Virus record (IMG/VR): IMGVR_UViG_3300020579_000006
Location: 30,865 to 94,864 of that record
Strand: one strand, 5' to 3'
Length of the DNA: 64,000 nucleotides
Source of the DNA: a virus
Shown here: positions 9,323-45,225 of the stretch, one piece after another
How the letters are laid out: each line of letters opens with the position of its first letter
How positions within the stretch are numbered: the stretch's first letter is position 1
Notes under the pieces: model-generated
What the model was told of the DNA's origin: nothing
The model's input: only the letters and a program-made list of their open reading frames with translations
Database searches by the model: none
Position numbers and translations under genes: made by a program

Positions 9323-11934
9323 GAGCACTCCTAGCAACGATTATTCTCCTTTTAACTAGTATATCGGCTTTTAGTCAAACTCAAATAACAGGGTCTACTA
9401 CTATAGCCGGAAACATTTCTCTTGGTACTGCTGTAGCAATAGGCCCTAATACTGGTTTACCTCCCGACCAGCTTCCAGTAGGTTCTGGTTGGCACGACCT
9501 AGGAGTCCAGAGTTCTCTAAACGGAAGTGGTCAATGCTTTACTCCCGCTCCTCCTGGTTCTACTGGTTGCGAATCCGTTCTTGGTTCTTGGGGTAGTGGA
9601 GCCATGATGCAAATGTCTGCCCAAATGTGCGTAAATGGCGGCGGGCACGTAAACTATAGCGGTAACGAAATATATTGTTTAACTCTAACCGGTTCTAGTG
9701 GCTGGACATGGGTACGTATAACAAATCCTACTTCTCCTTACTCCACTACTAGCCAAGACTGTTTACCAGAAGGGTTTAATTGCAGTTCTTTAACTGTAGG
9801 GTCTACAAACGGATTTCCGCAGTCTGTCCATCCATATAACGGATTAACATCCATTCCTAACCAAAATCGTATGGTACGCTGTATGGGTTCTAAGGCCGTT
9901 AGTGGAAACACAACTCTGTGGTGCTGGTCGTATGATTTTACAAATAATTTTTGGACTTTAGAAGATAAGTCAGTTGTTGGTAGTAATTGCTCTGGCGCTA
10001 CTGCACAAGGACTTGGTGGTCACGCAGTATACGATAATTATACAGGTCATGTTTTTATAAATAGTGTTGGGTGCTTATACGAACTCGACCCAGTTGCACA
10101 CACAACGATACAACTGGTTTCTTTTGATAACGTAGCTATAGATGACCACTTAACGTCTGATATAGACCCTATTCGTCATTTAATGGTGTATGTTGGTTGT
10201 GCCGGATGTAGCGGCAGCCCTAGTGGTATTGTTACTACAGATATTACTCCAGGCAGTGCTCATACTCACACCAATCTAACCTCTTCCATGACCGGTTGCA
10301 CCGCTATTGGCGGTCAAAGTTATAATGGTATTGCCTATGACCCGGTAACTACTCTCATGGTTGTGTTGCTTACTGACGTTTCGCACATGTATTACGTAAA
10401 CGTAAGTGCGAATGCGGTACTGACACAACAAGGTTCAATTGCAGCTAAAAGCTGTGTCGAGATTACTGGTTTTACCGGCGGACCAACTAGTGCAGGTCTT
10501 TCAGGTAATTATAACGGTCTTTTTAAGCGCTGGTCTTATGCGGCATTTTGCGACTGTTTTGTTTATGTAGGAGACTTTAATCAGGATAGTTTTATCTTCC
10601 GGCTACCAAGACTTCCTGTTGACCAGCAACAGTTCGTGGCATCTTCGGCTAGTCCGCAAGTGTTCCGCGCACTTGGCCTAAACGTGGCTTGCGACCTGAC
10701 AGATGGCTGTGATGGCACGTTCGATGGTTTCAAATCGAACGACCTACCCGCCAATCCGCCGGTATTAGATAACGCTGTCGCAGGAACCGTAGGAGCCATC
10801 AAGTTTACGGTACCAGCGCAAGGCGGACCAAATGACGCAGGGTCTATTCGTTACAATTTTAATCCTATCGGTGCAACTACAAACCAGTTCGGAACCGGCG
10901 GAGAGTTCTGGGTAAAGTATCGCGTCCGTTGGGATAATTGGGGAACGTGGGCCGTCACCGCTGGACAGAGCGCAGCGGGGCCAAAGTTCGATATAACCGG
11001 TGCTGGACAGTCAGCAAGCGATGTTAGCCTAGAAGTAGGTTCCTGCACCATTCTTGAACAGACCACGCAGGATGTTGCAGGACGTAAGTTTATTCAGATG
11101 TACACTTCTTGCGGAAATTTTATCAGCTACGAGGCTCCCGCTGTTGGTTCTACATTTGACCTTGAACCCGGTTTGAACGGGCAGTGCCTATACCAATCCA
11201 CACAAACTGACTGTTACAAATATCTAAATAACCTAAACACATGGGTTGACATTGTAAAACATGTCAAAATTAACGAAATGTCTGGTCCTGGTAAAGGAAC
11301 ATCGAAGATTGAGCTATGGGCAGCACCGGACGGCCAACCACTGCAAACCTTGGTTAGTGTTTCTGACGCAGGAATATATCCAGATAATACCGGCTCCGAC
11401 CCGCATAGTTCGCTATTGTACGGTAAGGTCTGGCTACTTCCCTACATCTCGAATCGCGACAACACGGTCAACGACGGCTTCGTGACGCACGTCTGGTACG
11501 ACAAGCTTGAACTCTCGCGGGGCTGTATTACCGTTCCCGGACCGCTCATCTCCGTGCAAGGTATTTGCCCGGCGACGCTCATCAAGGCGACAGACGTAGA
11601 TAGCACGCACGTCACCGTGACTTGGCAACATAACGACCTTTATGGGCTAGACACCTATATAGTGGAGCGTTGTCCCGGTGTAATTAACGATTGTGGCAAG
11701 AACCCGGCAGCGAACTTTACGCAAATTGCTATTACTGATACCGCGAATCACATTTGCACCAACCTTTTGGCCTGTAGCTTTACGGATTCGACTGTAACAA
11801 CCGGTCACACTTATAGTTACCGCGTTCGTCCTGTGCGGCTTATCTATGGCATTACTTATAAAGGACCATACACCGGCGGATTGTGCTACCTTGGTGCTAC
11901 TGGAACTTGCGACCCCACAACTACAACACCATAA
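9316..11934 (+). CDS. secreted-type Cys-rich protein (propeller-like N-half, lyase/lectin-like middle, FN3-like C-terminus)
   Basis: Signal peptide MVRALLATIILLLTSISAFS|Q; GGGH..YSGNEIY; C-terminal VTVTW...YIVERC...FTDSTV..GHTYSYRVR FN3 pattern. Confidence 0.65.
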   Translation: MVRALLATIILLLTSISAFSQTQITGSTTIAGNISLGTAVAIGPNTGLPPDQLPVGSGWHDLGVQSSLNGSGQCFTPAPPGSTGCESVLGSWGSGAMMQMSAQMCVNGGGHVNYSGNEIYCLTLTGSSGWTWVRITNPTSPYSTTSQDCLPEGFNCSSLTVGSTNGFPQSVHPYNGLTSIPNQNRMVRCMGSKAVSGNTTLWCWSYDFTNNFWTLEDKSVVGSNCSGATAQGLGGHAVYDNYTGHVFINSVGCLYELDPVAHTTIQLVSFDNVAIDDHLTSDIDPIRHLMVYVGCAGCSGSPSGIVTTDITPGSAHTHTNLTSSMTGCTAIGGQSYNGIAYDPVTTLMVVLLTDVSHMYYVNVSANAVLTQQGSIAAKSCVEITGFTGGPTSAGLSGNYNGLFKRWSYAAFCDCFVYVGDFNQDSFIFRLPRLPVDQQQFVASSASPQVFRALGLNVACDLTDGCDGTFDGFKSNDLPANPPVLDNAVAGTVGAIKFTVPAQGGPNDAGSIRYNFNPIGATTNQFGTGGEFWVKYRVRWDNWGTWAVTAGQSAAGPKFDITGAGQSASDVSLEVGSCTILEQTTQDVAGRKFIQMYTSCGNFISYEAPAVGSTFDLEPGLNGQCLYQSTQTDCYKYLNNLNTWVDIVKHVKINEMSGPGKGTSKIELWAAPDGQPLQTLVSVSDAGIYPDNTGSDPHSSLLYGKVWLLPYISNRDNTVNDGFVTHVWYDKLELSRGCITVPGPLISVQGICPATLIKATDVDSTHVTVTWQHNDLYGLDTYIVERCPGVINDCGKNPAANFTQIAITDTANHICTNLLACSFTDSTVTTGHTYSYRVRPVRLIYGITYKGPYTGGLCYLGATGTCDPTTTTP

Positions 11935-13275: not shown

Positions 13276-13538
13276 TGTCTAGGTTTAAAGCTGCCCGCCA
13301 TGTTCTTGGCGGTAAATCTCGCAAGAAAATTCGTTCAGTTCGTGGTCGCCGAAAGATTAAGAAAACTGTGGATGAGTGGAAAGCGGGAACTCTGCATAGC
13401 GGGTCTAAGACAGGTCCTGTAGTTAAGTCACAGAAGCAAGCGGTCGCAATTTCGCTCTCGCAAGGTCGCAAGCACGTAAGGAAGGGTAGTCCGGAAAATG
13501 AACACAATAGAACCAGCACCTCCGAAACAGGGGTGTAA
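13275..13538 (+). CDS. small basic protein, DUF6496-like
   Basis: EWKAGTLHSGSKTGPVVKSQKQAVAISLS motif. Confidence 0.65.
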   Translation: MSRFKAARHVLGGKSRKKIRSVRGRRKIKKTVDEWKAGTLHSGSKTGPVVKSQKQAVAISLSQGRKHVRKGSPENEHNRTSTSETGV

Positions 13539-13616
13539 GCCAGTAAATGGAAGCTGTCCGGTTTTGGAAACCGGTGTCGCAAGACTTTAGAGGTTCGAGT
13601 CCTCTCACCCCTACCA
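13529..13616 (+). tRNA. tRNA-Pro (TGG), atypical
   Basis: Acceptor AGGGGTG/CACCCCT, anticodon arm CCGGT-TTTGGAA-ACCGG, extra variable hairpin GTC-GCAA-GAC, T-loop TTCGAGT, ACCA end. Confidence 0.8.
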
Positions 13617-19326: not shown

Positions 19327-19942
19327 TGAAAAGAATAATTGAAATAGTTAATGAACATGATGCATTCGAATATTGTATAGATGGTTCTGGTCCTAAAATA
19401 GAAATTACAGAAGATACAACGGTTGTTTCGAATTCAGACCCGACACGTCCTATAAAAATAACAACCTTGCATAAATATCGTATACCAGAAGGTTACAAAG
19501 TTAGTATGTTTGAAATAGCGAAAACCGAAGTATATAAGTAAAGTCCGGAAACTGAACGCGAAAGGTTCAAGAGATGCAATCAGAAGTAGCTTACAACCGT
19601 ATTGAAAAAATGCGTGGGGAGGAACTAACCCCCGAAGAAAAATATGAGATAGACCAGTATTTTCGTGGTCGAGCGTTATCTCAAATAACCGTTACTGAAG
19701 GATACCAAGAAATTTTAAGTATGCTTCAAAGCTACGTAGTAGACGCGGTTGAAAAACTCGTAGCGGTGGACCCGGCTGAAACCACAGAAGTACTGGCTTT
19801 TCACGCGGTAGCTTATGCAGCCAGTAAAATACACTCGAAGTTTCAACAAGATGTAAATGCGGCGGTTGATGCATCAAGAACAACCCCGTCAGCTATTAAA
19901 CAGTTTGCAAAAGCGGCCCCGGTACCCGCAGGAAGTTTGTAA
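19326..19942 (+). CDS. two hypothetical proteins (19326-19541 and 19574-19942)
   Basis: ORFs between portal and scaffold. Confidence 0.6.
19553..19569 (+). promoter_or_regulatory. leader hairpin with GCGAAAG loop, copy 1 (copy 2 at 26034-26052)
   Basis: TGAAC-GCGAAAG-GTTCA 4 nt before ATG 19574; TTTTGC-GCGAAAG-GCAAAA 2 nt before ATG 26055. Confidence 0.5.
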
Positions 19943-19990: not shown

Positions 19991-21190
19991 ATGAGTGAAC
20001 CACTCGCAGTAAATAGAACGCCCGTAGACCCGTTTAGTTTTGAAGACCCTCGATTTGCAGGGGTCGATACAGCAGTGCGCAGAGAAGATTTACCGGTCGC
20101 AGACGATGACGGTTGGGAAGACCCTGGATTTCAAGCTACACAACGGGTTCCAGCTAGTAACCAATTTTTTAAAGACCTAAGCGATATCGCAGACGAGACT
20201 CCTGAAGTACAGGAAGTTCTCGATGCCGAAGTACTAGCAGCTACTCCTCCGCCTCCCGCTCCAGCGGTTGCCACAGTTGTAGTACCCGACCAACCTGAAG
20301 TTATCGAATATGACGATGGTTCCTCAGTCACCATAGAAAAGACAGCCAAGGGATGGAGCGCTACTTTAGATAGTAATACATCTAGTGGCGTAGAAATCTT
20401 CCGTGGTAAAACCAAAGACGAAATGTGGCGTAATCTAGCGGCAGGCAAAATTAACGCTACCCGTAAGATTAATTCACTGAATCGTCAGATTAAGTTGGGT
20501 CAACCCGAGGTTTCTCAGACTCAACCTGCCGCACCAAAAGTCCGGGAACTGACCGCCGACGAAGTGTTCGAGCTTAAAACTCAACTTCAGAATAACCCCG
20601 ACCTAGCATTCCAAAGTTGGTTCCAAAAGAAAACCGGTAAAACTGTGGAACAACTAACCACTCTAGCTGAAAAAGGCGAAGAGGCTAACGAGAATCTTCG
20701 TCAGGAATATGAAGCTAAATCGTTTAGAGCTGAATATCCTGAATATTTTAATACTGACGAAAACTATCAGTCACTTCTAGCTTGGCTCAGAAAACACAAA
20801 AACCTAGATAAAGATATTTTACAGTTTAACGCAAAGAATTTAGGAGAAGCTTTTGAAGACCTATCCTCTGACGGATTGTTAGATGAAGCTCCGAAAGTAG
20901 CTCCAGTAAGACGAGCATCTGCACCACAACCTACCCCAGTAGCCGCTACCCCAGTTCCTGATGTTGTGCCTGCACCCGCTCCAGCGCCTGCTCCCGACCC
21001 ACGGATTGTGGGAACGACAAAGCGGCGAGTACGTGGTAATTTCGGTATACCTCAGAGCGCTATTACCAACGCTCAACCGGTCGCTGAAACCGCACCTACA
21101 GACGAAGAGTTGGATAATCTTTCTAACGATGAAATCAACCAGTTATTCTCTGGTGTTCGACGTTTAAGAGCACAATCCGCTCGGCGCTAA
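19991..21190 (+). CDS. capsid scaffolding protein
   Basis: Acidic/Pro-rich, helical, directly upstream of MCP, basic C-terminal tail. Confidence 0.7.
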   Translation: MSEPLAVNRTPVDPFSFEDPRFAGVDTAVRREDLPVADDDGWEDPGFQATQRVPASNQFFKDLSDIADETPEVQEVLDAEVLAATPPPPAPAVATVVVPDQPEVIEYDDGSSVTIEKTAKGWSATLDSNTSSGVEIFRGKTKDEMWRNLAAGKINATRKINSLNRQIKLGQPEVSQTQPAAPKVRELTADEVFELKTQLQNNPDLAFQSWFQKKTGKTVEQLTTLAEKGEEANENLRQEYEAKSFRAEYPEYFNTDENYQSLLAWLRKHKNLDKDILQFNAKNLGEAFEDLSSDGLLDEAPKVAPVRRASAPQPTPVAATPVPDVVPAPAPAPAPDPRIVGTTKRRVRGNFGIPQSAITNAQPVAETAPTDEELDNLSNDEINQLFSGVRRLRAQSARR

Positions 21191-21217
21191 GAACTAAACG
21201 ACTCTAAAGAGAAATCT

Positions 21218-22909
21218 ATGAGTTATTCTCCCGCGAGTATTCAGACTTCCGGTGCGCTTCCTAACTTGGTTGCGATTTACTACGAACGTCAGAGTATTCC
21301 TAACCTGAAGGCCCAAACACCCTTCTTATCCATGACTATTTAAGCTGCTTGGTCATGCAAACCGAAGTGGTAGATATTGAAGCAGAAACCACTTCCGCTA
21401 CGGTCAGGAAATCAGATTCAATTTTTCACCTATGCTCTATTGGCGGCTAATACCAACCAAGCGGCAGAAGGTACTGTTGGGTCTCCAATTTCCGAAAGCT
21501 CCACTAAAATCATAGCGACAATTGGTCAGTTGAAATCATCGGCTGACTTTAAATTTGGCTATATCCGTTAACCCCTTATTAGCATCTAATATAAGAAGAG
21601 ACGGAGGTAAGATTCCAATGGCTATTATAAGTAAAACGAAATGGGCATACGTCGCCGCAATGGTGGACGGAGAAGGTCACATTTCCATAGCAGGGACCAA
21701 ATCAGGGCAAGGCTATAAAGGCAAACCCTATTGGTTAATAGATTGTAAGATTGGTATTTCAAACACTTCTGTGGAACTAATGAAGTGGCTAAAAGAGAAT
21801 TTTGGCGGCGAATATCATGACGGTGGACAAGGTTCTAGAAGAATTTGTTATAGATGGAACCTTCAAAACTACAAACAAATGGAAAAATTTGTTCTTGCAA
21901 TCCTGCCTTATATGGTTATTAAGAGAAAACAGGCACTTTTAGCTCTTGAGTTTTTTCGTATGTTTGGGCAGAAAAACCCGGCTAAACGATTAGAACTAGC
22001 TAGAAGATGCCAAGCTCTTAATAGAGGAATAACCCCAGAGACTAATACGCCAAACCCGGTTTTAGAACCGGTGAAGATAGAGTCCGAACTTACTAGTGAT
22101 AGTAAGAGTGCAGCAGTAGTGATACTGCCAGATAACGTCGATTTTAAAGTACGCTATCTTACCGCAGAAAACTCGGTAGCCTAAACACATTTGACGCTGA
22201 CTTTATTAACAGTTCCGACCTAGCTATGGACGTAGCGATTGACGACCCGTCGTTACTTCAGAACCTAGCAACCGAACTAAATTATCGCCTTGCTCTTACC
22301 CTCAACTCGCTCGTTCAGCTTACCTCTGACAGCGCGGTTGGTGTTGATGGCACGGTTAACATCCAGTTAGCAAACGGTTCATACCTTACTGCTAACAACC
22401 TCCGTACCGCTACTCAGCAATTGGCTGGCGTAAATGCCCGTCCACTTACTAAGGACGGTTACTGGGGCGGAATTATCCATCCGTTCGTTGTACACGACGT
22501 GCTAAACGACACGTCCGTCAATGGATTGACTGACATCCTAAAGCGCAACGGTGATTCAGCACAAAAACTATTTGCGCCCCTGTCAAACGAGGAAGTTATC
22601 GAGTTCGCTGGCTGCCGTTTCAAACAGACCACGACCGCACCTTCCGTAACCATCTCCAGCAACACGTACTACAATACGTATATTTATGCTGATGATGCCC
22701 TCTTTAGTGTCTTCCTTGGAAAAAATCCTGAGTCCGGTGAAAAGAACTACCGACTTATGATACAAGAAGCTCCTAGCCAGGGTTCAGTGAGCGACCCCGC
22801 ACGACAGATAGGAGGTTGGGTTTCGTACAATGTTAAGTATACCAACACTCTTCGTCCCGGTTCCACTATGGTTCTTCGACGCCTACAATCGGAAACTTCG
22901 AGTTCGTAG
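21218..22909 (+). CDS. major capsid protein (N4-gp56-like), join(21218..21337,21380..21530,22194..22909), 328 aa
   Basis: Joined reading MSYSPAS...IYYERQSIPNLKAQTPFLSMT|KQKPLPLRSGNQIQFFTY...AEG...ATIGQ|YADFINSSDLA... gives a continuous HK97-fold MCP pattern; 987 nt, in frame. Confidence 0.85.
21338..21379 (+). mobile_element. 42-nt core-less group I-like mini-intron in MCP
   Basis: In-frame TAA and TAG; follows U, ends in G; GGTCATG pairs 5' exon CATGACT with U.G at the junction; CTGCTT pairs 3' exon AAGCAG. Confidence 0.75.
21531..22193 (+). mobile_element. group I self-splicing intron in MCP
   Basis: P1 GTCAGT/GCTGAC with U.G; P3 TTTGGC/GCCAAA; R-like CAGAGACTA; S-like GAAGATAGAGTCC; terminal G; splice restores TAC (Tyr). 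Confidence 0.9.
21618..22184 (+). CDS. intron-encoded LAGLIDADG homing endonuclease
   Basis: SD GGAGGT; WAYVAAMVDGEGHI, ISNTS, FGG, ILPYMVIKRKQA motifs. Confidence 0.88.
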   Translation: MAIISKTKWAYVAAMVDGEGHISIAGTKSGQGYKGKPYWLIDCKIGISNTSVELMKWLKENFGGEYHDGGQGSRRICYRWNLQNYKQMEKFVLAILPYMVIKRKQALLALEFFRMFGQKNPAKRLELARRCQALNRGITPETNTPNPVLEPVKIESELTSDSKSAAVVILPDNVDFKVRYLTAENSVA

Positions 22910-22922
22910 GAGTAACCTTTTC

Positions 22923-23054
22923 CACTTAGTTAGCATCTAATTAAGTGCGGTTCAGTGCAGAGAAATCTGCGCTCCACTCTGGTCCCAGAGTAATGGGCAA
23001 CTGGAAACGGGGGTGCCTCGAACACCCCCTATCCAACTCTTTCGAGGAGAGAAA
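22923..23054 (+). promoter_or_regulatory. structured intergenic leader ending in an SD-sequestering pseudoknot
   Basis: Hairpins CACTTAGTTAG/CTAATTAAGTG, GCAGA-GAAA-TCTGC, CTCTG/CAGAG; GGGGGTG-CCTCGAA-CACCCCC with loop complementary to TTCGAGG (23041-23047). Confidence 0.55.
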
Positions 23055-23591
23055 ATGAAGTTTATTATTTATATTGTAAGAAACAAAATTAACAATAAGG
23101 TTTACGTTGGCAAAACATCTCAAAAACTCCGTCGCAGATGGTCCCATCATATCTCCCATGCTCCCGGCGACCCGTATTACTTCCACAGAGCTATTTGTAA
23201 GTATGGCTCAGAGAACTTTGAAATATCTGAAATTGACTGCGCCGAAGAACTAACAACTGCAAATCAGCTAGAACAACAATATATACAAGAGTTTAAATCT
23301 TATAACCCCGAGTTTGGTTATAACAGTACGTTTGGCGGGGACGGGGTGCCTTGTACTCCCGAAGCAAAAGAAAAACACCGTCAATCAATGATTGGCAAAC
23401 CCAAATCTATAGAATCTCGGCAAAAACAAAGTATTTCCGTAACAGGTGTAAACAACCCTCGTTATGGCTGTCCGGTTTCGGAAGAAACCCGTTTAAAGAG
23501 AAGTCTAAAATTAGCAGGCAGACCGAGACCTAAAGAAGTTATAGACAGAATCACATTAGCCAAGTTTCTTAAAACAGTAGCTTGGGGTTAA
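23055..23591 (+). CDS. GIY-YIG/NUMOD3 homing endonuclease
   Basis: IIYIVRNKINNKVYVGKT, GYNSTFGG; ATG 23055 after GAGGAG. Confidence 0.85.
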   Translation: MKFIIYIVRNKINNKVYVGKTSQKLRRRWSHHISHAPGDPYYFHRAICKYGSENFEISEIDCAEELTTANQLEQQYIQEFKSYNPEFGYNSTFGGDGVPCTPEAKEKHRQSMIGKPKSIESRQKQSISVTGVNNPRYGCPVSEETRLKRSLKLAGRPRPKEVIDRITLAKFLKTVAWG

Positions 23592-44631: not shown

Positions 44632-45225
44632 TTAACCTCTTTTCTTAATAATATCCGTAAAGTGGTCTACTGTGTAAACTCGCGGTTCGGTAGAAATTTG
44701 ATTCCAAGGGCGGTCGAGTAAATAGGCGCGGTGTCCGGAAACTGAATTACACTGAGTAACGGTTTCCTGCTTATCGTCTATGCTGAAATCTATTTCTAGT
44801 TTTTTCATTAACCCGGCTTTTTCAGATGGGTCTTTTACGATAATAGGAGTAGTTACTTCTTTATCGAAAGGATAAAGATTGTGGTCTACTAGCCAGTCGA
44901 GAGTTTGGTCGTAAGCAGTACCGCCCTCAGTATCTGGCCGTTGAGTCATAAAATAAACCGTTACTTCCGGGTTACTATGAATAAACCGGATAGCGGAATC
45001 CACGTTTGTTTTATACGCCGGTTCTCGACGCCAGAAGTTGGGAGTTTTCTTAATAACATCGAAAATCGGACCCCAGTCTTCTCGGGTCAACCCGTACATG
45101 GTATAATACCAGTCATTAGGTTGGGGGTCTGCCGGTACTTTATTAGGCCATTTTTCATTAATAATCGGTGCTACGTTAGCACCAAAATTCGCAAGTACCC
45201 CGTCAATATCGAAGCTTACTTTCAT
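44632..45225 (-). CDS. HAD-family 5'(3')-deoxyribonucleotidase-like protein
   Basis: FDIDGVLANF, IDD, RPWN motifs. Confidence 0.8.
   Translation of the reverse strand: MKVSFDIDGVLANFGANVAPIINEKWPNKVPADPQPNDWYYTMYGLTREDWGPIFDVIKKTPNFWRREPAYKTNVDSAIRFIHSNPEVTVYFMTQRPDTEGGTAYDQTLDWLVDHNLYPFDKEVTTPIIVKDPSEKAGLMKKLEIDFSIDDKQETVTQCNSVSGHRAYLLDRPWNQISTEPRVYTVDHFTDIIKKRG

What the first reader, a model, noticed from the sequence alone, without database searches (positions are those of the whole stretch)
21218..22193. 42-nt core-less group I mini-intron in the essential capsid gene, next to a full ribozyme that could splice it
Seen: after codon 40 (ATG ACT|) the MCP frame contains ATTTAAGCTGCTTGGTCATGCAAACCGAAGTGGTAGATATTG (21338-21379) with two in-frame stops, then resumes at |AAG CAG AAA CCA. 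The insert is little more than an internal guide sequence. GGTCATG pairs 7 bp with the 5' exon CATGACT, placing a U.G wobble exactly at the junction (P1). The adjacent CTGCTT pairs 6 bp with the 3' exon AAGCAG (P10). A small ACC-GAAGT-GGT hairpin follows, and the insert ends TTG like the full intron downstream (ATTTG). Established: these are the splice-site determinants of group I introns, but catalysis needs P3-P7, which cannot fit in 42 nt. Inference: this is a non-autonomous intron excised by the core of the complete group I intron 151 nt downstream, in cis or in trans. One ribozyme would then serve two splice-site pairs, capsid production would depend on the large intron, and the large intron could not be lost cleanly. 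I know of no described phage example.
Basis: partly seen in the sequence, partly recalled or inferred. Interest (0 to 1): 0.92.

Follow-up and report, generated by a model that had tools for sequence, protein, structure and literature searches.

The report
Core-less group I mini-intron in capsid gene

Summary
Intron-less homologues read ...PFLSMT|KQKPLP... with no gap, so 21338-21379 is a true 42-nt insertion with in-frame TAA and TAG. It follows a U, ends in G, and carries a guide that pairs 7 bp with the 5' exon (U.G at the junction) and 6 bp with the 3' exon.

It is one of about 28 such inserts (32-59 nt, at least 8 sites) that I found in related capsid genes. Their P1 and P10 pairings co-vary with synonymous exon changes. 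Their 5' ends match full introns at the same sites in other phages. Each lies 16-270 nt upstream of a full group I intron.

The large intron (21531-22193) is the only group I core detected in the 94.8-kb genome. It is precisely spliced in two metatranscriptomes. Contigs from those two runs still contain the 42 nt, one of them the very contig that carries the large-intron joint. No 21337^21380 junction was seen, so excision is inferred and not shown.

The helper-ribozyme reading is partly supported (about 0.55).

The closest published relatives are the 56-81-nt degenerate group I introns of fungal SSU rDNA. The scan has noted the same kind of element in at least 10 other genomes.

The parts
21218..21337 (+). 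Capsid exon 1 (codons 1-40, MSYSPASIQ...PFLSMT)
   Evidence: Aligns to residues 1-40 of intron-less homologues. Against L045 it has 33 nt differences: 25 synonymous codon changes and 0 non-synonymous.
21338..21379 (+). 42-nt core-less mini-intron (follows U21337, ends G21379)
   Evidence: Absent from all uninterrupted homologues. No Rfam match inside it.
21341..21343 (+). In-frame TAA (first stop in the capsid frame)
21371..21373 (+). In-frame TAG (second stop)
21331..21337 (+). P1, 5'-exon strand (CATGACT)
   Evidence: Pairs with 21351-21357. Folded in the MFE structure. The family P1 is 100% paired with an invariant U.G.
21351..21357 (+). Internal guide sequence, P1 strand (GGTCATG; G21351 opposite U21337)
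   Evidence: L032 has GGTCATTG opposite exon CAATGACT, a compensatory change.
21345..21350 (+). Internal guide sequence, P10 strand (CTGCTT)
   Evidence: Complementary to 21380-21385 and directly 5' of the P1 strand, as in group I introns.
21380..21385 (+). P10, 3'-exon strand (AAGCAG)
   Evidence: The family P10 is 89% paired, with 3 pairs changed on both sides.
21364..21371 (+). H3 helix, intron strand (GAAGTGGT)
   Evidence: 8 bp with 21388-21395 in the MFE fold. Across the minis H3 averages 6.7 bp, against 4.5 in a flank-permutation control.
21388..21395 (+). H3 helix, 3'-exon strand (ACCACTTC)
   Evidence: Analogous to the 'PM' pairing of the fungal small introns (PMC3160393).
21380..21530 (+). 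Capsid exon 2 (K41...Q90 plus the first base of Y91)
   Evidence: The RNA joint starts after 21530.
21531..22193 (+). Full group I intron (663 nt), the candidate helper; its own P1 is 21525-21530 with 21542-21547
   Evidence: Rfam Intron_gpI 30.3 bits, E 3.7e-5, at 21781-22106, below the gathering score. Joint 21530^22194 in RNA runs X3 and X4, not in DNA run X1. The only group I match in the 94.8-kb genome.
21618..22184 (+). Intron ORF, LAGLIDADG-like endonuclease (188 aa)
   Evidence: Pfam LAGLIDADG_1, E 0.0062, 17.8 bits, below the cut-off of 23.1.
22194..22909 (+). Capsid exon 3 (rest of Y91 to the stop)
   Evidence: the spliced product is 328 aa.

Best explanation
The 42-nt insert is a non-autonomous group I mini-intron. 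It looks like an internal-deletion derivative of a full intron of the kind that occupies the same T40|K41 site in related phages. It has kept only what defines the splice sites: the 5' exon-guide helix P1 with its U.G wobble, the adjacent P10 guide for the 3' exon, the terminal G, and one extra helix (H3) that ties its 3' half to the 3' exon. It has no P3-P9 core and no G-binding site. It is therefore most likely excised by ordinary group I transesterification in the active site of the complete intron 151 nt downstream. That could happen in cis, before the large intron leaves, or in trans, using the released intron RNA. Shown here: the insertion itself; the pairings and their covariation; homology of the 5' ends to full introns; the constant position upstream of a full intron; purifying selection on exon 1; and in vivo splicing of the large intron. 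Inferred: that the mini-intron is excised at all, and that the neighbouring intron's core does it.
For: (1) Homologues have no gap at T40|K41.
(2) Exon 1 is under strong purifying selection (25 synonymous and 0 non-synonymous codon changes against L045), so it must be joined to exon 2 in the protein.
(3) I found 30 distinct short inserts in related capsid genes. Of these, 28 follow T, end in G and carry [P10 strand][G + P1 strand]. Mean P1+P10 is 12.2 bp, against 4.7 (maximum 11) when flanks are permuted between sites.
(4) On 8 minis at one site, P1 is 100% paired with U.G in 8/8 and two pairs changed on both sides. P10 is 89% paired with three such pairs. None of 500 shuffles reaches the observed covariation, and slid controls pair only 30-53%. 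At site 89 the exon base at -6 is G, C or T and the guide is C, G or A.
(5) Insert lengths show no bias to multiples of three, and 29 of 30 contain in-frame stops.
(6) The minis share the pre-guide, guide and following UAAA with full introns at the same sites in other phages.
(7) All 27 minis for which a downstream distance was tabulated (one further copy, L091, is cut by its contig end) have a full group I intron 16-270 nt downstream (median 38). It is never nearer upstream.
(8) The large intron is precisely spliced in two RNA runs and is the only group I core detected in the genome.
(9) Biochemical precedent: a guide sequence can act in trans to an Azoarcus core (PMC2709566), and engineered group I 'spliceozymes' remove passive introns (PMC4509937).
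Against: No spliced 21337^21380 form was seen. X3 contig record 3 runs 21100-21530 without a gap and then joins to 22194, so the large intron is gone and the mini is retained. X4 record 7 (21314-21493) also retains it. P0001, a JGI gene product, starts at TTG 21377 and has GQ-Y-ADF joined. Contigs keep only the majority path, so this limits excision to a minority form in those samples but does not exclude it. In this window the mini is 151 nt from the helper, and H3 is 128 nt from the helper's P1, whereas in most relatives they abut. A search of viral contigs for the exact spliced junction found nothing. The only protein with 100% identity to exon 1 and no insert (P0195, encoded by L065) comes from different DNA.
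Confidence: 0.55

Rival explanations
1. Translational bypass (hop) of the T4 gene 60 type: the 42 nt stay in the mRNA and ribosomes skip from the end of exon 1 to the start of exon 2.
For: The insert is retained in RNA contigs whose large intron is already spliced. A stop codon lies one codon past the junction. The take-off region sits in a hairpin. In L032 a TTG-TAA take-off matches a TTG landing codon right before exon 2. The T4 hop is itself part of a mobile cassette with a homing endonuclease (bioRxiv 10.1101/2022.08.31.505936, listed).
Against: In the window no take-off codon (ATG, ACT, ATT) matches a landing codon (ATA, TTG). Across the family only 16 of 30 show any match among many tried combinations. 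The phase-1 inserts at site 892-895 split the invariant Trp298 codon (T|GG), so a hop would delete it. A hop explains neither the invariant U.G, the terminal G, nor the covarying P10.
Confidence: 0.1
2. Autonomous minimal ribozyme: the mini-intron splices itself with help from exon structure, as reported for the 67-nt PaSSU intron of Phialophora.
For: The helix inventory is the same (P1, P10, and a mid-intron to 3'-exon pairing). PaSSU is reported to splice in vitro when about 300 nt of downstream exon is present (PMC3160393).
Against: The fungal introns keep a P7 with a G-binding site. No internal helix is conserved in the phage minis, which are as short as 32 nt. Self-sufficiency would not explain why a full intron always lies just downstream.
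Confidence: 0.1
3. The insert is not removed. The gene is expressed as two polypeptides (a 41-aa N-arm peptide and a 289-aa body re-initiated at TTG 21377), or the allele is crippled.
For: TTG 21377 is in frame directly before K41. A gene caller made this call (P0001). The RNA retains the insert.
Against: There is no convincing Shine-Dalgarno sequence before TTG 21377. Most family members have no in-frame start codon or are out of phase. Exon 1 is under strict purifying selection. The phage DNA and RNA occur in several soil samples, so it replicates.
Confidence: 0.08
4. Excision by another agent: a host-encoded group I core, or a protein endonuclease plus an RNA ligase.
For: The host is unknown, and only the phage genome could be searched.
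Against: U.G in P1 and a terminal G are specific to group I chemistry. The polarity towards the phage's own intron points to that intron.
Confidence: 0.07

Closest known systems
Small degenerate group I introns of fungal nuclear SSU rDNA (Phialophora PaSSU 63-75 nt, Arthonia 63 nt, Porpidia 78 nt; PMC3160393)
   Same: Tens of nucleotides long. [quoted passage not shown] The rest of the core is absent. They are thought to be deletion derivatives of full introns.
   Different: The fungal ones keep a P7 G-binding helix, end in U, sit in rRNA, and are reported to self-splice in vitro with long exon context. The phage ones have no P7, end in G, interrupt a protein-coding gene, occur at many sites, and always lie just upstream of a full intron.
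Self-splicing group I introns of phages (from my own knowledge: T4 td, nrdB, sunY; Twort orf142), and the full introns of this gene family
   Same: U.G at the 5' splice site in P1, an internal guide with adjacent P10, and a terminal G. The 5' end is homologous to full introns at the same site.
   Different: No P3-P9 catalytic core and no ORF; 42 nt instead of 200-1050 nt.
T4 gene 60 50-nt translational bypass element (bioRxiv 10.1101/2022.08.31.505936, listed)
   Same: A roughly 50-nt non-coding gap with a stop codon in an essential phage gene. It is retained in the mRNA and linked to homing-endonuclease biology.
   Different: It needs matched take-off and landing codons and a nascent-peptide signal. 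Here the codons do not match, and some family members split an invariant codon.
Group I ribozymes acting on separate guides or substrates (Azoarcus with the guide sequence in trans, PMC2709566; Tetrahymena 'spliceozymes', PMC4509937)
   Same: The core and the splice-site helices are on different RNA segments, and a passive intron is removed by a group I core.
   Different: These are laboratory constructs. In spliceozymes the guides are on the ribozyme, whereas here they are on the passive intron.

Membership tests
Group I intron | 5' splice site after a U that forms a U.G wobble with the internal guide sequence (P1) | tested here: met
   U21337.G21351 closes a 7-bp P1. U.G is present in 8/8 aligned relatives.
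Group I intron | P10: guide sequence directly 5' of the P1 strand pairs with the start of the 3' exon | tested here: met
   21345-21350 with 21380-21385, 6 bp. The family P10 is 89% paired with compensatory changes.
Group I intron | Terminal guanosine (omega-G) at the 3' end | tested here: met
   G21379. 28 of 30 family inserts end in G in a register allowed by the alignment.
Group I intron | Catalytic core P3-P9 with the G-binding site in P7 | tested here: not met
   The 42 nt are fully accounted for by the P1, P10 and H3 strands and linkers. No Rfam match lies inside 21338-21379 even at E <= 10.
Group I intron | Precise excision from RNA | tested here: inconclusive
   The large intron's joint was seen, but no 21337^21380 joint. 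The insert is retained in X3 and X4 contigs. Contigs cannot show minor forms.
Fungal-type minimal group I intron (PaSSU class) | P1, P10 and PM (mid-intron to 3'-exon helix) | tested here: met
   P1, P10 and H3 as listed above, compared with PMC3160393.
Fungal-type minimal group I intron (PaSSU class) | A retained P7 with a bulged nucleotide next to a G-C pair | tested here: not met
   There is no conserved internal helix. The 3-bp ACC/GGT option competes with H3 and is absent from L032.
T4 gene 60-type bypass element | Identical take-off and landing codons flanking the gap | tested here: not met
   Take-off candidates are ATG, ACT, ATT. Landing candidates are ATA, TTG, AAG. None match.
T4 gene 60-type bypass element | Gap retained in the mature mRNA, with a stop codon next to the take-off site | tested here: met
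   RNA contigs retain the 42 nt. TAA lies one codon after the junction.
T4 gene 60-type bypass element | Stimulatory nascent-peptide signal | not testable with these tools
   This needs translation assays.

The most novel reading that the evidence does not exclude
A natural division of labour among group I introns. In these phage capsid genes one full ribozyme serves two substrates in tandem: its own P1, and the P1/P10 of a passive mini-intron parked just upstream by a dedicated tether helix (H3). This would be a non-autonomous intron class that depends on a neighbour's catalytic core, functionally a one-RNA forerunner of a trans-acting splicing machine. The minis may additionally protect their site from invasion by the full intron and its endonuclease.
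Probability: 0.5. Interest if true: 0.9.

Novelty: new variant of a known kind. Interest (0 to 1): 0.78.

Why it matters
If the mini-intron is excised by its neighbour's core, it would be the first natural case in a phage (in the literature I could search) of a group I ribozyme servicing a passive intron. The roughly 28 covarying examples would give a ready-made mutational data set. It would also tie capsid production to retention of the large mobile intron. It would show that intron-rich phage genes are routinely mis-annotated as truncated; gene callers here produced a 289-aa product (P0001) and, from another contig of the same cluster, a 227-aa product (P0121). If the mini-intron is not excised, the puzzle is just as sharp. 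An actively transcribed, replicating phage carries two stop codons in its only capsid gene, inside an insert whose every paired base is conserved by covariation. Either outcome can be tested directly with one RNA construct.

Tried and rejected
Read-through or a changed genetic code: the three tRNAs in the window are Gly, Asp and Pro, with no suppressor. Family insert lengths are not multiples of three.

Assembly artefact: rejected, because the same 42 nt stand in independent DNA and RNA assemblies.

Chance pairing: rejected by the shuffle and permutation controls.

Other mini-introns in the window: four more hits to the T...G/P1/P10 rule (10662-10715, 19646-19665, 44837-44870, and 3565-3499 on the minus strand), about the number expected by chance. 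For the first three, which I checked, two lie inside intact ORFs and one lies opposite an ORF on the other strand.

Spliced form elsewhere: the exact spliced junction was not found in viral contigs. No uninterrupted gene among about 200 fetched loci is more than 84% identical to any interrupted one, so there are no RNA/DNA pairs. P0195 (100% identical to exon 1, no insert) is encoded by L065, which has different DNA and a 1-nt frameshift. P0058, which resembles a spliced L036, differs at 2 residues and its source could not be typed.

Phage GenBank records: no blastn match.

Matching the last 3-4 nt of the minis to those of their neighbouring introns (a P9.0 idea): compared by eye only, inconsistent, and dropped.

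Literature searches found no phage description. The fungal precedent came from a lead in the scan's notes.

Full report
WHAT IS THERE. The window lies in a 94,864-nt soil virus record. Its major capsid gene starts at ATG 21218. After codon 40 (ACT, ending at 21337) come 42 nt (21338-21379). These carry TAA at 21341 and TAG at 21371 in the capsid frame. The frame then continues at AAG CAG AAA CCA.

More than 100 homologues (mostly 327-329 aa; some sources name them 'N4-gp56 family major capsid protein') read ...KAQTPFLSMT|KQKPLPLRSGNQ... with no gap. The 42 nt are therefore a true insertion.

A second interruption, 21531-22193 (663 nt), sits inside the Y91 codon (GQ|Y|ADF). It matches Rfam Intron_gpI at 30.3 bits, E 3.7e-5, which is below the gathering score. 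It holds a weakly LAGLIDADG-like ORF. Removing both inserts gives a 328-aa protein.

THE SPLICE-SITE SIGNALS.
- The insert follows U21337 and ends in G21379.
- GGTCATG (21351-57) pairs with exon CATGACT (21331-37), with U.G at the junction.
- The six bases directly 5' of it, CTGCTT (21345-50), pair with AAGCAG (21380-85).
- GAAGTGGT (21364-71) pairs with exon ACCACTTC (21388-95). I call this helix H3.
- The minimum-energy fold contains P1 and H3. P10 would be a loop-loop contact between them (z = -1.7, so the fold energy alone is unremarkable).

A FAMILY OF MINI-INTRONS. I fetched about 200 related loci and aligned each interrupted gene to its closest uninterrupted relative.

These capsid genes are very rich in introns. 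They carry up to six full group I introns (about 200-1050 nt) at more than 20 sites.

I also found 30 distinct short inserts (10-59 nt) at 8 or more sites. Of these, 28 follow T, end in G, and carry a guide of the form [complement of the 3' exon start][G + complement of the 5' exon end]. Their P1+P10 averages 12.2 bp. When flanks are swapped between sites the average is 4.7 bp (95th percentile 8, maximum 11). H3 averages 6.7 bp against 4.5. Insert lengths show no bias to multiples of three, and 29 of 30 carry in-frame stops.

COVARIATION. On an alignment of eight minis at site 892-895:
- P1 is paired in 100% of cells. U.G is present in 8/8, and two pairs are changed on both sides.
- P10 is 89% paired, with three pairs changed on both sides.
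- None of 500 shuffles reaches the observed covariation.
- Sliding the partners drops pairing to 30-53%.
- H3 is mis-registered in that MAFFT alignment, so it rests on the per-sequence analysis only.

At site 89 the synonymous third base of the Pro28 codon is G, C or T, and the guide base opposite it is C, G or A. The window and L032 share the T40|K41 site. Exon CATGACT faces GGTCATG in the window, and exon CAATGACT faces GGTCATTG in L032.

Genes that carry homologous minis are only 65-76% identical in their exons. The elements have therefore persisted, or moved, across deep divergence while keeping their pairing.

ORIGIN. At several sites other phages carry a full intron whose first 25-40 nt (pre-guide, guide, then UAAA) match the mini:
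- site 120: L037 and L073 against the window and L032;
- site 554-558: L122 and L123 against L039;
- site 95: L192 against the L037 mini;
- site 266: L040 against L098;
- site 824-831: L114 against L070.

The minis therefore look like internal-deletion derivatives that lost everything between J1/2 and the last few nucleotides. H3 was not evident in the full introns I inspected by eye.

ASSOCIATION WITH A FULL INTRON. I tabulated a downstream distance for 27 of the 28 P1/P10 minis; the remaining copy (L091, a near-duplicate of L090) is cut by its contig end. All 27 have a full group I intron downstream, at 16-270 nt (median 38). In 21 of the 27 the distance is 45 nt or less. Where an upstream intron also exists, it is always farther away. 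In about 15 of 27 the exon strand of H3 abuts or overlaps the 5' strand of the downstream intron's P1.

This polarity argues for a physical, cis relationship and not just co-occurrence in intron-rich genes. The window, L032, L035 and L106 are the outliers, at 151-270 nt.

In this genome the large capsid intron is the only group I match.

THE GENE IS ALIVE. Exon 1 differs from L045 at 33 of 120 nt: 25 synonymous codon changes and none non-synonymous. Exon 2 differs at only 9 of 150 nt. So exon 1 is still selected as protein, and there is a recombination mosaic with its breakpoint at the mini-intron. The DNA occurs in several soil metagenomes, and its RNA occurs in several metatranscriptomes.

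RNA EVIDENCE. Only Logan contigs could be laid on the sequence.
- Two metatranscriptome runs from two studies (X3, X4) carry the joint 21530^22194. The DNA run X1 does not. The large intron is therefore spliced in vivo exactly as predicted.
- X3 contig record 3 shows that joint yet runs uninterrupted from 21100 to 21530, so the 42 nt are retained.
- X4 record 7 (21314-21493) also retains them.
- The JGI gene product P0001 (289 aa) starts at TTG 21377 and has GQ-Y-ADF joined. This is a third, independent sign of the same RNA form.
- No 21337^21380 joint was reported.

Assemblers keep the better-covered path, and depth here is only about 6. The data therefore say that the unspliced form is at least as abundant as any spliced form in these samples. 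They do not say that excision never happens. They do show that the large intron can leave first. If the helper model is right, it must then also work in trans, or these molecules are dead ends.

ALTERNATIVES.
- Read-through: excluded by the family's insert lengths and the absence of suppressor tRNAs.
- Gene 60-type bypass: it fits the RNA retention, but it fails on codon matching in the window. It would delete the invariant Trp298 in the phase-1 inserts, and it leaves U.G, the terminal G and P10 unexplained.
- Re-initiation at TTG 21377: possible only for the phase-0 members that end in a start codon.
- Autonomous splicing: this has a published analogue. Fungal SSU rDNA introns of 56-81 nt have P1, P7, P10 and a mid-intron to 3'-exon helix ('PM'). 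One of them is reported to splice in vitro when long exon context is present (PMC3160393). The phage minis have the same P1/P10/PM layout but no P7, and unlike the fungal ones they always sit next to a full intron.

VERDICT. It extends to a family whose helices are supported by covariation. The element is best described as a non-autonomous group I mini-intron.

Excision by the neighbouring ribozyme is the most economical mechanism, and guide-in-trans and spliceozyme experiments make it chemically plausible (PMC2709566, PMC4509937). It remains inferred, and the available RNA assemblies of this very phage do not show it.

The scan's notes record the same kind of element in at least 10 other genomes. 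I treated those notes as leads only.

Noticed in passing
L001-L199 (e.g. L192:346-3254, L199:1377-4039, L040:182-3996): Capsid genes of this phage family carry up to six full group I introns at more than 20 different sites. At least two intron sequence families are present. One has GGCTATATCGGTG/CCGT after P1 and ends ..CCTAAACAnnnG. The other is about 200-230 nt, has TCTGATTGACT or GCTAATTCGG, and ends ..GTAACAnnnnG.
   Followed up: partly
L037:4814-4823; L098:1659-1673 (= L104:442-456): Two very short inserts (10 and 15 nt) follow T, end in G and break the frame or carry a stop. Neither has a recognisable guide sequence. Unexplained.
   Followed up: partly
L122:464-1266, L123:4325-5143, L186:3558-4205, L037:2860-3847: Several full introns appear to end in A and not G when the exons are joined to restore the conserved protein (H187|P188 and T40|K41 sites).
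   Followed up: no
L075:~1005-1012; L085:~672-680; L065:~360-370: Short JGI contigs have uninterrupted capsid genes but carry single-base deletions. In L075 and L085 the deletion lies at or within about 5 nt of known intron insertion sites (ref 744 and 271). They could be mis-spliced RNA or assembly errors.
   Followed up: partly
window 21218-21530: Mosaic similarity: exon 2 is 94% identical to L045 but exon 1 only 72%. The switch falls at the mini-intron, as expected for recombination or co-conversion around introns.
   Followed up: partly
window 21720-22223: In RNA run X3 the 3' two-thirds of the large intron is covered contiguously into exon 3 at the same depth as the mRNA, while 21548-21675 is uncovered. 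This could be a transcript that starts inside the intron or a stable processing product.
   Followed up: no
window 22072-22110: A second, 70.9-kb contig in DNA run X1 shares only this 39-nt stretch of the intron core (2 differences), with unrelated flanks. A related intron is therefore present in another genome of the same soil sample.
   Followed up: no
window 23055-23591; 21579-21590 and 22929-22940: A GIY-YIG/NUMOD3 endonuclease gene follows the capsid gene (Pfam E 2e-12). The motif TTAGCATCTAAT occurs in a hairpin-like context before both endonuclease ORFs.
   Followed up: no
window 13529-13616: A tRNA with a Pro (UGG) anticodon and a long variable arm.
   Followed up: no
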